From: a virus
Lineage: Duplodnaviria; Heunggongvirae; Uroviricota; Caudoviricetes
Reading direction: 5' to 3' (one strand)
IMG/VR virus record: IMGVR_UViG_2537561603_000003
Coordinates: 1-41,597 of that record
Length of the DNA: 41,597 bases
The translations under genes and the position numbers were made by a program. Of the stretch, positions 6,061 to 9,728 are shown one piece after another; positions within the stretch are counted from its first letter, which is position 1; every line of letters begins with the position of its first letter. The notes beneath the pieces were generated by a model that was not told the origin of the DNA, made no database searches, and saw only the letters and a list, made by a program, of their open reading frames with translations.

Positions 6061-6193
6061 TTTTTGGGACTCCTGGCTGATTAAGTATGTCGATAAGGCG
6101 TTTCCATCCGCCACGTAATTTGCGGGTGATTCGTTCAAGTAAAGATTCGGAAGGGCAGCCAGCAACAGGCCACCCTGCAATGGCATATTGCAT
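6029..6193 (-). CDS. cIII: Protease inhibitor cIII
   Basis: Hand-translated from the ATG at 6191-6193: [54 protein letters not shown] (54 aa), near-identical to lambda cIII; overlaps kil as in lambda; absent from the track because it is under 60 aa. Confidence 0.8.
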   Translation of the reverse strand: MQYAIAGWPVAGCPSESLLERITRKLRGGWKRLIDILNQPGVPKNGSNTYGYPD

Positions 6194-6265
6194 GGTGTGC
6201 TCCTTATTTATACATAACGAAAAACGCCTCGAGTGAAGCGTTATTGGTATGCGGTAACGCCGCGC

Positions 6266-6634
6266 TCAGGCGGCTTTGATAGTCATATCATCTGAATCAA
6301 ATATTCCTGATGTATCGATATCGGTAATTCTTATTCCTTCGCTACCATCCATTGGAGGCCATCCTTCCTGACCATTTCCATCATTCCAGTCGAACTCACA
6401 CACAACACCATATGCATTTAAGTCGCTTGAAATTGCTATAAGCAGAGCATGTTGCGCCAGCATGATTAATACAGCATTTAATAAAGAGCCGTGTTTATTT
6501 AGTCGGTATTCAGAGTCTGACCAGAAATTATTAATCTGGTGAAGTTTTTCCTCTGTCATTACGTCATGGTCGATTTCAATTTCTATTGATGCTTTCCAGT
6601 CGTAATCAATGATGTATTTTTTGATGTTTGACAT
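6266..6634 (-). CDS. ea10: Lambda Ea10 protein
   Basis: 122-aa product MSNIKKYIIDYDWKASIEIEIDHDVMTEEKLHQINNFWSDSEYRLNKHGS... matches lambda Ea10. Confidence 0.85.
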   Translation of the reverse strand: MSNIKKYIIDYDWKASIEIEIDHDVMTEEKLHQINNFWSDSEYRLNKHGSLLNAVLIMLAQHALLIAISSDLNAYGVVCEFDWNDGNGQEGWPPMDGSEGIRITDIDTSGIFDSDDMTIKAA

Positions 6635-6652
6635 CTGTTCATATCCTCACAG

Positions 6653-6680
6653 ATAAAAAATCGCCCTCACATTGGAGGGC
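6653..6680 (-). terminator. Intrinsic terminator between the 293-aa gene and ea10 (tL-like)
   Basis: 6-bp GC stem gccctc (6663-6668) / gagggc (6675-6680) with loop acattg; the minus-strand transcript then has a 6-U run (plus-strand A run 6655-6660). Confidence 0.6.
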
Positions 6681-6822
6681 AAAGAAGATTTCCAATAATC
6701 AGAACAAGTCGGCTCCTGTTTAGTTACGAGCGACATTGCTCCGTGTATTCACTCGTTGGAATGAATACACAGTGCAGTGTTTATTCTGTTGTTTGCGTGA
6801 AAATGAAATCCGCCTAAGCGGG

Positions 6823-7704
6823 TTATGACCACTTTTTGTTTGGGTTTCGTTGGTGAGCGTGGTTTACAGGATTATTTGATATACCCCATAACTCTGACTC
6901 GCTTATCTCTACACGAGAGAAAGACCTGCTTTCTTTCAGTTCTTTTATAAACCTAGAACCTAAGATGACATCTATTGTACCAGAAAGTTCTTGTAAAAGA
7001 TCTTTGTTTTTTCTGAGGAAGAAAATATCTTCTTTATATTTAATTTTTACATAGAATTTATTCTGTATTTTTAATATATCAAAGCATGGCAGATATCTAT
7101 ATCCCTCATATTTTCGCCACTGCTTAACAATTATAACATCTCTTTCATTTACTGCATTAATCAGCCCAAGACCAAGTACAGGTATGAATATTCTATTGTC
7201 TGCCGAAAGCGTACAATTATCACCACCAGGCAAATATGTATAAATCATGTCGGAATTTTTATACGCATCAACGAATGCACGTAAGAAGCGTACATATTTT
7301 TGCCATCCGTTTATACCGAATTTACCATATAAGTATTCTTTATTTGTTAGAAGAAAACTATTTGTATCAGGATCCTTATCTACAGATCTGTCGATAAGAT
7401 CTCCAACTACGTTTACAAAGTCAAAGACAGAGTTTAATAAGAACAATTGTCTTTCAGTAGGGCGAATTTCAATTATGTAGCCTGGATGAAGACGATATTG
7501 CATCTGCTTACGAAGTATACCGAACGCTTGGGTCCGAGCATCTGAAAGCAACTTCTTGTCGCCATCGCCGTGAGCATTGTTTCTAATAAAACTGATATAA
7601 TTTACTAATTTTTCAGCCTCTTTTTTGTGTTTTTTTCGCTCTGATGCTGAGTCTATTGGTTTTGGTATGGACTTGTAATCAATCTTCTTCATTACGTACC
7701 TCAT
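6823..7704 (-). CDS. Hypothetical 293-aa protein in the pL operon, at the sieB/ral position
   Basis: ATG at 7702-7704 overlaps the N stop codon (ATGA); no TM segment and no motif recognised; AT-rich by eye. Confidence 0.6.
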   Translation of the reverse strand: MRYVMKKIDYKSIPKPIDSASERKKHKKEAEKLVNYISFIRNNAHGDGDKKLLSDARTQAFGILRKQMQYRLHPGYIIEIRPTERQLFLLNSVFDFVNVVGDLIDRSVDKDPDTNSFLLTNKEYLYGKFGINGWQKYVRFLRAFVDAYKNSDMIYTYLPGGDNCTLSADNRIFIPVLGLGLINAVNERDVIIVKQWRKYEGYRYLPCFDILKIQNKFYVKIKYKEDIFFLRKNKDLLQELSGTIDVILGSRFIKELKESRSFSRVEISESELWGISNNPVNHAHQRNPNKKWS

Positions 7705-8024
7705 GCCAATGGAATGGATTTCCCTTTAACCTTTTGTCTTCCTTGACAAGTTATACCGAACTCACCTGGCTTGCTATACCAAACTCGATGATTCTTGCGC
7801 TCAATACGTTGCAGGTTGCTTTCAATCTGTTCGTGGTATTCAGCCAGCACTGTAAGGTCTATCGGATTTAGTGCGCTTTCTACTCGTGATTTCGGTTTGC
7901 GATTCAGCGAGAGAATAGGGCGGTTAACTGGTTTTGTGCTTACCCCAACCAACAGGGGATTTGCTGCTTTCCATTGAGCCTGTTTCTCTGCGCGACGTTC
8001 GCGGCGGCGTGTTTGTGCATCCAT
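7701..8024 (-). CDS. N: Antitermination protein N
   Basis: 107-aa product MDAQTRRRERRAEKQAQWKAANPLLVGVSTKPVNRPILSLNRKPKSRVESALNPIDLTVLAEYH... matches lambda N; ATG at 8022-8024. The track ORF is an upstream extension. Confidence 0.9.
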   Translation of the reverse strand: MDAQTRRRERRAEKQAQWKAANPLLVGVSTKPVNRPILSLNRKPKSRVESALNPIDLTVLAEYHEQIESNLQRIERKNHRVWYSKPGEFGITCQGRQKVKGKSIPLA

Positions 8025-8182
8025 CTGGATTCTCCTGTCAGTTAGCTTTGGTGGTGTGTGGCAGTTGTAGTCCTGAACGAAAACACCCCGCGATTGGCAC
8101 ATTGGCAGCTAATCCGGAATCGCACTTCCGGCCAATGCTTCGTTTCGTATCATACACCCCAAAGCCTTCTGCTTTGAATGCT

Positions 8183-8213
8183 GCCCTTTTTCAGGGCTTA
8201 ATTTTTAAGAGCA
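8183..8213 (-). promoter_or_regulatory. nutL (boxA and boxB)
   Basis: The complement of 8183-8197 reads gccctgaaaaagggc (boxB hairpin); the adjacent taagagc (8206-8212) is the complement of a boxA-like GCTCTTA. The region is nearly identical to lambda nutL as recalled. Confidence 0.7.

Positions 8214-8375: not shown

Positions 8376-9728
<1,353 letters not shown>

What the first reader, a model, noticed from the sequence alone, without database searches (positions are those of the whole stretch)
6653..7704. Unassigned 293-aa gene translationally coupled to N, occupying the sieB/ral slot of the pL operon
The ATG at 7702-7704 overlaps the N stop codon (ATGA), so the protein is made from the earliest leftward transcript. 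Lambda carries superinfection-exclusion and anti-restriction genes (sieB, ral) at this position; neither is present here. The protein has no TM helix and no motif I can assign, and the gene is AT-rich by eye relative to N and ea10. It is followed by an inverted repeat and a strong terminator (6653-6680). This is the best single-gene candidate for an undescribed defence, abortive-infection or anti-defence function.
Basis: partly seen in the sequence, partly recalled or inferred. Interest (0 to 1): 0.75.

Follow-up and report, generated by a model that had tools for sequence, protein, structure and literature searches.

The report
Nun-tailed, TnpB-like phage exclusion protein
The gene after N in this phage-434-like genome encodes a protein that joins a nucleic-acid-recognition domain shaped like the front half of the RNA-guided nuclease TnpB to the exact 14-residue peptide that phage HK022's Nun protein uses to jam RNA polymerase, so it is most likely a new kind of transcription-blocking weapon against competing phages.

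Summary
The ORF is real. It lies 8 nt after the N stop, in the slot where lambda has sieB/ral.

The last 14 residues (VNHAHQRNPNKKWS) are identical to HK022 Nun 96-109, the segment that plugs the RNA polymerase cleft. The phage 434 GenBank record already calls the orthologue "Nun C-terminal peptide-containing protein", but no study of it was found.

New here:
- The tail's key residues are invariant in homologues down to 36% identity, despite synonymous DNA changes.
- Distant relatives carry a different conserved tail (GGLPSLGKRR). Some sit inside BREX operons, between BrxC and PglX.
- The slot after N commonly holds Nun-tailed genes.

Best reading: a Nun-type transcription-arrest exclusion factor with a new targeting module. 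Its target is unknown and nothing has been tested experimentally. It is a new variant of a known kind. Interest 0.74.

The parts
6823..7692 (-). Coding sequence of the 289-aa protein, stop codon included. The longer 293-aa reading starts at 7704.
   Evidence: ORF list. PHROG 12139 covers residues 5-293 of the long form, E = 9e-205. 99.3% identical to phage 434 CPT_434_48 / UMO75312.1. The P0001 cluster has 1042 members of 289 aa.
7699..7702 (-). GAGG Shine-Dalgarno for the 7692 start. It overlaps the N stop codon and suggests translational coupling to N.
   Evidence: Sequence read. An RBS is annotated at the same place in phage 434.
7495..7692 (-). Residues 1-66: a basic N-terminal helical hairpin (helices 16-38 and 43-65). 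It is specific to the Nun-tailed lambdoid subfamily.
   Evidence: AF2 model md610fa47217a, pLDDT about 86-97 across this part. Absent from the short distant relatives (alignment A2). Net charge +8.
7033..7494 (-). Residues 67-220: a core with TnpB/Cas12 REC-lobe topology. Strand 72-77 is followed by four helices (80-145), then a strand-rich part (152-217) with a flanking helix (183-196). It holds the family motifs L.P..Q..L..F, FLL.NK, CS(I/L)S..N and RY..F.
6868..7032 (-). Residues 221-275: two C-terminal helices, then a disordered linker. The linker contains the motif ESRSFSRVEISES (254-266), which is also conserved in the relatives that carry the other tail.
   Evidence: AF2 secondary structure, with pLDDT below 50 for residues 249-282. 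Alignments A1 and A2.
6826..6867 (-). Residues 276-289, VNHAHQRNPNKKWS. This is identical to HK022 Nun residues 96-109, the segment that binds the RNA polymerase cleft and arrests it.
   Evidence: Translation. PHROG 5632 (Nun-like) hit on 274-293. BLASTP against Nun. The only PDB hit is 6ALG chain N. N, H, H, R, K, K and W are invariant in homologues down to 36% identity. The roles of these residues come from PMC5386594.
6800..6822 (-). A short hairpin CCGC-TTAG-GCGG followed by ATTTCATTTT, immediately after the stop codon. It is a degenerate copy of the intrinsic terminator that follows almost every Nun-tailed gene.
   Evidence: Comparison of 3' flanks in 20 or more loci. Most carry ...cccgcttcggcgggttttttatt.
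6733..6780 (.). Inverted repeat in the conserved boundary sequence downstream of the gene.
   Evidence: the repeat finder. The region is shared with lambda, Stx phages, Sf6 (annotated 'boundary sequence') and HK022, whatever gene lies upstream.
6652..6682 (-). Intrinsic terminator in front of ea10.
   Evidence: Terminator scan: 8-bp stem with 5 G-C pairs, then TTTTTTAT. Annotated as a terminator in phage 434.
7701..8024 (-). Lambda-type antiterminator gene N (107 aa, starting MDAQTRRRERRAEKQAQW...). The target gene is coupled to it.
   Evidence: The same N-then-gene order is seen with four different N arginine-rich-motif (ARM) types.
8183..8197 (-). nutL boxB hairpin GCCCTGAAAAAGGGC of the lambda type. 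The phage uses the very RNA site that HK022 Nun attacks, so the target gene cannot be aimed at that site.
   Evidence: Hairpin found. nutL is annotated at the same place in phage 434.

Best explanation
The gene encodes a two-module transcription-arrest (exclusion) protein that is made with N from the earliest pL transcript.

Module 1 (residues ~1-260) is a basic, folded domain. Its core has the WED+REC ('REC lobe') architecture of TnpB/Cas12. In those enzymes this part recognises the TAM/PAM DNA duplex and part of the guide RNA. The nuclease half is missing. I infer that this module is the targeting device and binds a specific DNA or nascent-RNA feature.

Module 2 is a flexible linker ending in the 14-residue Nun peptide. 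[quoted passage not shown] I infer that the protein delivers this plug to elongation complexes transcribing a target, most likely a competing phage, in the way Nun does to lambda. Recognition would be by a folded domain instead of an arginine-rich helix (ARM) binding boxB.

The phage's own transcription would be spared because the target feature is absent from it. The target cannot be lambda-type boxB, which this phage itself uses.

Shown: gene anatomy, tail identity and its conservation, fold resemblance, and genomic context. Inferred: polymerase arrest, nucleic-acid binding, and the identity of the victim.
For: Tail:
- It is identical to Nun 96-109, and the only PDB relative is Nun in the arrested elongation complex (6ALG).
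- Nun 87-109 contains all known determinants of arrest, and removing the last 13 residues abolishes RNAP binding (PMC5386594).
- N97, H98, H100, R102, K106, K107 and W108 are the residues that contact RNAP, RNA or DNA. Their equivalents are invariant in family members down to 36-47% identity.
- The coding DNA differs at synonymous sites among those members, which argues for purifying selection and against a passenger sequence.

Fold and composition:
- AF2 model with pLDDT 82.8 and pTM 0.77, with a disordered tail.
- Foldseek against PDB and BFVD also puts TnpB-type proteins first.
- The topology matches the published WED/REC map.
- All family members are basic, pI 8.9-10.6.

Context:
- The gene follows N within -4 to +8 nt in about 30 of 35 loci, across four N ARM types.
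- In two loci (L002, L080) it sits directly after the repressor, where HK022 has nun.
- Bona fide Nun and other Nun-tailed ARM proteins occupy the same post-N slot in other phages.
- The 3' flank is shared with HK022 nun.
- One phage (L006) carries both a 434-type gene and an ARM-type Nun-tailed gene in tandem.
- Distant relatives lie in BREX operons and defence islands.
Against: - There is no experimental evidence of any kind for this protein.
- Only 14 of the 23 Nun residues seen in the polymerase cleft are shared. H93 and R94, which contact upstream DNA, are replaced.
- The TnpB-like assignment rests on a predicted model. Foldseek E-values are not significant (0.089 for PDB, 0.0045 for BFVD). 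Profile-profile sequence comparison is weak (P 0.011 local, 3e-4 global, probability 4-17%).
- No Pfam, NCBIfam or PADLOC model matches.
- HK022 Nun acts from the prophage. Here no separate promoter was found (promoter-like sites are no more frequent than in shuffles), so the protein may be made only during lytic growth.
- Relatives with a different tail show that the core domain can work without the Nun peptide.
- The target is unknown.
Confidence: 0.55

Rival explanations
1. The biochemistry is the same (polymerase arrest through the Nun tail), but the victim is the host or the phage itself. The protein would be an early host-transcription shut-off factor or a brake on the phage's own early transcription. 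Polymerases modified by N would escape.
For: The gene is tightly coupled to N, with no promoter of its own detected, so it is made at the very start of lytic growth. Nun in excess arrests complexes without nut, and its overexpression kills E. coli (PMC4124055). Lambda N traverses the RNAP hybrid cavity (PMC9378689), the region through which the Nun tail threads, so N-modified complexes could be immune. That last step is my inference.
Against: Two diverged homologues (L002, L080) sit in phages with no N gene in the early operon. The post-N slot elsewhere holds Nun-tailed proteins whose ARMs differ from the resident N, which points to competitors as targets. A large, conserved recognition domain is not needed for non-specific shut-off.
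Confidence: 0.2
2. The Nun tail is functionally irrelevant here. It would be kept only because recombination between phage modules runs through the shared 3' boundary sequence. The protein would act through its folded domain alone, for example as a DNA-binding regulator or a defence component unrelated to RNA polymerase.
For: The tail-coding DNA and the downstream flank of the window are almost identical to those of HK022 nun, so a recombination joint lies at the start of the tail. Relatives with the same core carry a different tail.
Against: The tail's key residues are invariant in homologues of 36-47% identity whose tail DNA and flanks have diverged, with many synonymous changes. In a scan of viral contigs the tail occurs only at the C-terminus of Nun-like or 434-type proteins, apart from one evidently spurious match.
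Confidence: 0.13
3. It is an RNA-guided protein. A nuclease-less TnpB derivative would use an omega-RNA-like guide to find its target and then block transcription there.
For: TnpB/Cas12 REC-lobe-like fold. Nuclease-dead TnpB derivatives exapted as regulators are known (PMC10691335).
Against: The RuvC and TNB parts are absent altogether, and with WED they hold most of the omega-RNA scaffold in TnpB. No Rfam family and no conserved non-coding region lies next to the gene. The stop codon is followed at once by a terminator in nearly all homologues, which leaves no room for a 3' guide. The BREX relatives are packed between neighbouring genes with gaps of 20-35 nt.
Confidence: 0.05
4. It is an anti-defence protein: a phage copy of a BREX-associated component that interferes with BREX or another host defence.
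For: Distant relatives are encoded between brxC and pglX in BREX operons. The slot holds the anti-restriction gene ral in lambda.
Against: Identity to the BREX relatives is only about 16-20% and the tails differ. E. coli BREX systems are not known to include such a component (my own knowledge). The Nun tail points to RNA polymerase, not to BREX proteins.
Confidence: 0.05

Closest known systems
HK022 Nun transcription termination/arrest factor (PDB 6ALG; PHROG 5632)
   Same: The C-terminal 14 residues are identical and include every residue shown to matter for arrest. The gene sits in the same neighbourhood: at or just after the N position in the early leftward operon, with the same 3' flank. 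The likely role is the same, blocking transcription of a rival.
   Different: Nun is 109 aa, largely unstructured, and finds its target through an N-terminal arginine-rich helix (ARM) that binds lambda boxB RNA. This protein is 289 aa and has a folded domain of about 250 residues with no ARM. It lacks Nun residues 87-95 (H93, R94). It lives in a phage that itself uses lambda N and boxB, so its target must differ.
TnpB / Cas12 RNA-guided nucleases (e.g. ISDra2 TnpB, PDB 8H1J/8BF8) and nuclease-dead derivatives (TldR-type repressors, sigma-associated TnpB)
   Same: The predicted fold of residues ~67-220 has the WED barrel with a four-helix REC insertion between the first two strands. The proteins are basic. 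Like the dead derivatives, it would bind without cutting.
   Different: There is no RuvC, no TNB zinc finger, no sign of a guide RNA, and no significant sequence similarity. The known exapted TnpBs keep the RuvC domain in an inactivated form, whereas here it is absent. Fusion to a polymerase-arrest peptide has not been described in the papers I could search.
Lambda sieB and ral (occupants of the same slot)
   Same: Same position between N and ea10. All are accessory genes of the early leftward operon concerned with phage-phage or phage-host conflict.
   Different: No sequence or architectural similarity. SieB is a membrane-associated abortive-infection protein and Ral modulates type I restriction (my own knowledge).
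Unnamed BREX-embedded relatives (P0026, P0032, P0033 and others)
   Same: They share the core domain and the S.SRV(D/E)(F/I) linker motif (profile E down to 1e-16 or better), are basic, and have a short conserved C-terminal peptide after a disordered linker.
   Different: The tail is GGLPSLGK(R/K)R rather than the Nun peptide. They have a different N-terminal extension, or none. They are encoded in betaproteobacterial (Dechloromonas, Burkholderia) or metagenomic defence islands rather than in lambdoid phages.

Membership tests
Nun family (HK022 Nun, PHROG 5632) | C-terminal arrest segment with N97, H98, H100, R102, K106, K107 and W108 at the extreme C-terminus | tested here: met
   VNHAHQRNPNKKWS is identical to Nun 96-109. 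These residues are invariant in all 434-type homologues.
Nun family (HK022 Nun, PHROG 5632) | [quoted passage not shown] | tested here: not met
   Similarity to Nun is confined to the last 20-50 residues. The N-terminus is a folded helical hairpin plus a TnpB-like core.
Nun family (HK022 Nun, PHROG 5632) | Small protein of about 70-125 aa, largely unstructured | tested here: not met
   289 aa, with 236 residues at pLDDT of 70 or more. In the viral scan, ARM-type Nun-like proteins are 67-123 aa.
Nun family (HK022 Nun, PHROG 5632) | Arrests RNA polymerase translocation, and is relieved by rpoC R322H, D264G or D329G | not testable with these tools
   Needs in vitro transcription or genetics.
TnpB/Cas12 superfamily | REC lobe: WED OB-type barrel with a helical REC domain inserted between strands 1 and 2 | tested here: met
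TnpB/Cas12 superfamily | RuvC nuclease domain (D-E-D) and TNB/zinc-ribbon domain | tested here: not met
   After the WED-like part, the model shows only two helices and a disordered tail. There are no PF01385 or PF07282 hits in any of 29 family members, even at E of 10 or less.
TnpB/Cas12 superfamily | Detectable sequence homology to TnpB (PF12323/PF01385) | tested here: inconclusive
   hhalign against 82 TnpB N-terminal halves gives a local P of 0.011 (32 columns; strand 1 plus the first REC helix, in register). Global alignment is colinear over 156 columns with P of 3e-4 and probability 17%. There are no Pfam hits.
TnpB/Cas12 superfamily | Associated guide (omega or CRISPR) RNA | tested here: not met
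   No Rfam match near the gene. A terminator follows directly after the stop codon in most homologues. This is absence of evidence only.
BREX system component | Encoded within a brxA-brxB-brxC-pglX... operon | tested here: not met
   The window gene lies between N and ea10 of a lambdoid phage. Only distant relatives lie in BREX operons. No PADLOC model matches either the phage protein or the BREX relative.
Lambda SieB / Ral | Sequence similarity to sieB or ral | tested here: not met
   Lambda aligns only to the flanks, and its sieB and ral region has no counterpart here. The only PHROG hits are 12139 and the Nun tail.

The most novel reading that the evidence does not exclude
The phage protein and its BREX-embedded relatives would define an unrecognised family of nuclease-less TnpB REC-lobe derivatives. 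Each would couple sequence-specific DNA or RNA recognition to a short, exchangeable C-terminal 'plug' peptide.

In lambdoid phages the plug is the Nun peptide. It would give programmable, site-specific arrest of RNA polymerase on rival genomes, possibly sparing N-modified polymerases.

In BREX operons a second plug (GGLPSLGKRR) would engage another machine. That could be part of the long-sought step by which BREX stops phage development.
Probability: 0.2. Interest if true: 0.9.

Novelty: new variant of a known kind. Interest (0 to 1): 0.74.

Why it matters
**Generalising Nun.** Nun has been treated as a one-off curiosity: a single small protein that excludes a single phage. This gene sits in the classical phage 434 and in about 2% of complete E. 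coli genomes (117 of 5426). It shows that the Nun arrest peptide is a portable effector, attached either to many different arginine-rich helices or to a large folded recognition domain.

**A new use of the TnpB scaffold.** If the domain really derives from the TnpB REC lobe, this would be a different kind of TnpB exaptation: the recognition half alone, fused to a polymerase-arrest peptide.

**Tools.** It could give transcription researchers a targetable roadblock that acts from inside the polymerase.

**BREX.** The relatives inside BREX operons offer a new, testable handle on how some BREX variants act.

Tried and rejected
- **Family libraries.** Pfam, NCBIfam and PADLOC scans of the protein gave no hits. 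A Pfam scan of all 29 family members at E of 10 or less found nothing consistent.
- **First AF2 run.** With a 4-sequence alignment the model was unusable (pLDDT 54). It was replaced by a 29-sequence alignment.
- **PDB sequence search.** The family profile found nothing. The GGLPSLGKRR tail also matches nothing solved.
- **afdb50.** This fold library was unavailable.
- **Rfam.** No RNA family lies near the gene, so the guide-RNA idea was set aside.
- **Genome scans.** The search for related loci with the broad alignment failed because no block was conserved enough. The narrower alignment gave only three genomes.
- **Context of distant relatives.** Look-ups for P0012, P0013, P0018 and P0021 returned short or uninformative contigs.
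- **Separate promoter.** Promoter-like sites are no more frequent than in shuffled sequence, and none lies between the N start and the gene start.
- **Literature.** Searches linking Nun with TnpB, BREX with TnpB, or 'Nun-like' proteins found no study of this protein. The genome announcement for phage 434 does not discuss it.
- **Lambda boxB as target.** Rejected, because the phage itself depends on lambda-type N and boxB.

Full report
**What is there**

The window is a lambdoid (pro)phage with phage 434 immunity. Its early region is about 95% identical to phage 434 and lambda imm434, and 98.7% identical to 434 across 6600-8150. An ORF of 293 codons runs 6823..7704 on the minus strand.

The start actually used is more likely the ATG at 7692:
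- It has a GAGG Shine-Dalgarno six bases upstream.
- The PHROG family profile begins there.
- The phage 434 record annotates that 289-aa form with that ribosome-binding site.
- The main protein cluster, with 1042 member sequences, is 289 aa.

Either way the gene begins within a few bases of the end of N. There is no terminator between pL and the gene, and no promoter-like site between the N start and the gene start. The protein should therefore be made with N from the first leftward transcript.

Lambda aligns to N and to ea10 but not to the gene, and has sieB and ral there instead. The gene has 30-38% G+C against about 50% for N. Downstream lie an inverted repeat (6733-6780) and an intrinsic terminator (6661-6682).

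The last 14 residues, VNHAHQRNPNKKWS (6826-6867), are identical to residues 96-109 of the HK022 Nun protein. The only solved protein chain they match is Nun in the arrested elongation complex, 6ALG (E = 1.4e-5).

In that structure only Nun 87-109 is ordered. [quoted passage not shown] N97, H98, H100, R102, K106, K107 and W108 make the contacts. Nun lacking its last 13 residues neither binds nor arrests RNA polymerase (PMC5386594).

The annotators of the phage 434 genome noticed the resemblance and named the orthologue 'Nun C-terminal peptide-containing protein'. Their announcement does not discuss it, and I found no paper that does.

**Is the tail functional or a recombination scar?**

The family is small. 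A search of 5.8 billion proteins gave four clusters, and an exhaustive profile search added a few more. Members range down to 36-47% identity. All end in VNHAH.R...KKW(S), and the residues just listed are invariant.

Their tail-coding DNA differs at many synonymous positions and their flanks differ. The peptide is therefore under purifying selection.

In the window itself, the tail DNA and the next ~100 bases are almost identical to those of HK022 nun, whereas the DNA just upstream of the tail is unrelated. In E. coli phages, nun and this gene thus behave as alternative cassettes sharing a 3' joint.

I scanned viral contigs for DNA encoding the tail. Apart from one evidently spurious match (a 767-aa composite ORF with the motif internal), it occurs in only two architectures. 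One is small proteins of 67-123 aa with very diverse arginine-rich N-termini (ARMs). The other is this 289/290-aa type.

**The rest of the protein**

There were no Pfam, NCBIfam or PADLOC matches. A first AF2 model from four sequences was poor. With 29 family members the model reached pLDDT 82.8 and pTM 0.77, with residues 249-282 disordered.

Fold searches all point to the same superfamily:
- Foldseek against PDB: ISDra2 TnpB ranks first, but weakly (E 0.089, probability 0.93).
- Foldseek against BFVD: giant-virus TnpB/Fanzor-type 'transposases' rank first (E 0.0045).

The order of elements in the model is:
- a strand at 72-77;
- four helices at 80-145;
- a strand-rich part at 152-217 with a flanking helix at 183-196.

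This is the published arrangement of the TnpB REC lobe, a WED barrel with the four-helix REC domain inserted between strands 1 and 2. In TnpB that lobe forms the cleft that reads the TAM duplex (PMC10097598).

At the sequence level the link is weak. hhalign against 82 TnpB N-terminal halves aligns the first strand and helix in register (P 0.011). In global mode it gives a colinear alignment over the whole lobe (P 3e-4, probability 17%). There is no RuvC or TNB domain.

I therefore describe the core as TnpB-REC-lobe-like. I do not file the protein as a TnpB. All members are basic (pI 8.9-10.6), which fits nucleic-acid binding but does not prove it.

**Relatives with another tail**

The profile search also found about 20 proteins of 213-326 aa that share the core motifs (L.P..Q..L..LF.GP, FLL.NK, CSIS..N, RY..F) and a linker motif S.SRV(D/E)(F/I). 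They end in a different, equally conserved peptide, GGLPSLGK(R/K)R.

Three of them (P0026, P0032, P0033) lie between brxC and pglX in operons whose other genes PADLOC recognises as BrxA, BrxB, BrxC and PglX. Others lie beside a DISARM-like helicase/MZB/PLD set, or among plasmid-type partition and replication genes in Dechloromonas and Burkholderia.

The core domain therefore recurs in conflict loci with exchangeable C-terminal peptides. I could not identify the partner of the second peptide.

**Genomic context of the Nun-tailed form**

In about 30 of 35 loci the gene follows an N gene with a gap of -4 to +8 nt. This holds with four different N ARM types. In two loci (L002, L080) it follows the repressor directly, with no N, which is the position of nun in HK022.

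True Nun sits just after N in Stx1 phages and PA28. In other enterobacterial phages the resident N is followed, a few bases later, by an 88-aa protein with a lambda-N-like ARM plus the Nun tail, and sometimes by a second Nun-tailed ORF. One phage (L006) carries a 434-type gene and an ARM-type Nun-tailed gene in tandem. Nearly all these genes are followed at once by an intrinsic terminator, which is degenerate in the window.

The slot after N is thus a general home for Nun-tailed genes whose recognition parts differ from the resident N. That is what would be expected of weapons aimed at rivals.

**Most likely mechanism**

The folded, basic, REC-lobe-like domain recognises a DNA or nascent-RNA feature of a competing element. 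The flexible linker then lets the Nun peptide enter the cleft of the polymerase transcribing that element and stop its translocation, as Nun does on lambda.

The target cannot be lambda-type boxB, because this phage has lambda-type N and nutL. I give 0.55 to 'acts by Nun-type polymerase arrest directed at foreign nucleic acid'.

**Rivals**

- Host or self as victim (0.2). The same arrest chemistry would be used for host shut-off or self-regulation, perhaps with N-modified complexes immune. Lambda N crosses the hybrid cavity, and excess Nun is non-specific and toxic.
- Passenger tail (0.13). This is weakened by the conservation data.
- RNA-guided action (0.05). There is no RuvC, no guide RNA and no room for a 3' guide.
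- Anti-BREX or anti-restriction role (0.05).

**Novelty and limits**

The tail resemblance is already recorded in GenBank. As far as the searchable literature shows, the following are new:
- purifying selection on the tail;
- the TnpB-REC-lobe-like fold without a nuclease;
- the BREX-embedded relatives with a second tail;
- the 'Nun-tail slot' after N.

Everything about activity is inferred. The fold assignment rests on a predicted model, and the sequence link to TnpB is not significant.

Noticed in passing
L049 3011-3595, L060 (minus strand), L100 (minus strand), L039 3343-4063 (coordinates): In several enterobacterial lambdoid contigs the order is repressor, then a small N-like ARM protein, then (about 3 nt later) an 88-aa protein. 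That protein has an N-terminus close to the lambda N arginine-rich motif (MDAQARRREKRK...) and a C-terminus that is the Nun tail. L039 has a second, overlapping Nun-tailed ORF with yet another ARM. Nun-tailed proteins seem to carry the ARMs of other phages' N proteins.
   Followed up: partly
L006 8001-8873 and the ORF starting 163 nt downstream: One metagenomic prophage carries a 434-type (TnpB-like) Nun-tailed gene and a 102-aa ARM-type Nun-tailed gene in tandem after its N gene. Each is followed by its own terminator.
   Followed up: partly
L007-L011 and L013 (e.g. L010 3128-16559): An unusual BREX operon: BrxA-BrxB-BrxC, then the 276-288-aa relative with tail GGLPSLGKGR, then PglX, two unassigned proteins (376 and 423 aa), an HSP70-family protein (610 aa) and a second PglX-like methyltransferase. 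PADLOC does not recognise the relative, the two unassigned proteins or the HSP70.
   Followed up: partly
C-termini of P0010-P0036 (alignments A2-A5): A strongly conserved C-terminal peptide, GGLPSLGK(R/K)R (variant GG.(I/V)E.GK(K)R), has no match among solved structures. Its partner is unknown.
   Followed up: partly
window 6800-6822, and the 3' flanks of loci: Almost every Nun-tailed gene, of either ARM or 434 type, is followed within a few bases of its stop codon by a canonical intrinsic terminator (cccgcttcggcgggttttttatt-like). In the window, phage 434 and HK022, this hairpin is degenerate.
   Followed up: no
P0008 (96 aa): A database protein joins the first 23 residues of Bet ([23 protein letters not shown]) to the last 73 residues of the 434-type protein. 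It is presumably a prophage deletion running from bet to this gene. IS1-disrupted and truncated copies also occur in E. coli genomes.
   Followed up: no
window 6148-6206 (-): Rfam Lambda_thermo, the cIII thermoregulator RNA element, at 88.5 bits. It is the only Rfam family reaching its gathering score in the window.
   Followed up: no
window 8376-8852 (-): A 158-aa ORF overlaps the end of the 434-type cI gene. It corresponds to the phage 434 'Hex' repressor-protection protein as annotated in OL657226, whose annotators note a disputed start codon. No terminator was detected between it and pL on the minus strand, so read-through from pRM into N and the target gene in lysogens cannot be excluded.
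   Followed up: no
window 6823-7692 compared with complete E. coli genomes: The gene is present in 117 of 5426 complete E. coli genomes, always on the chromosome. In 83 of them the match covers at least 80% of the gene, and one strain (Rb-23) is 100% identical. RefSeq annotates it everywhere as a hypothetical protein.
   Followed up: partly
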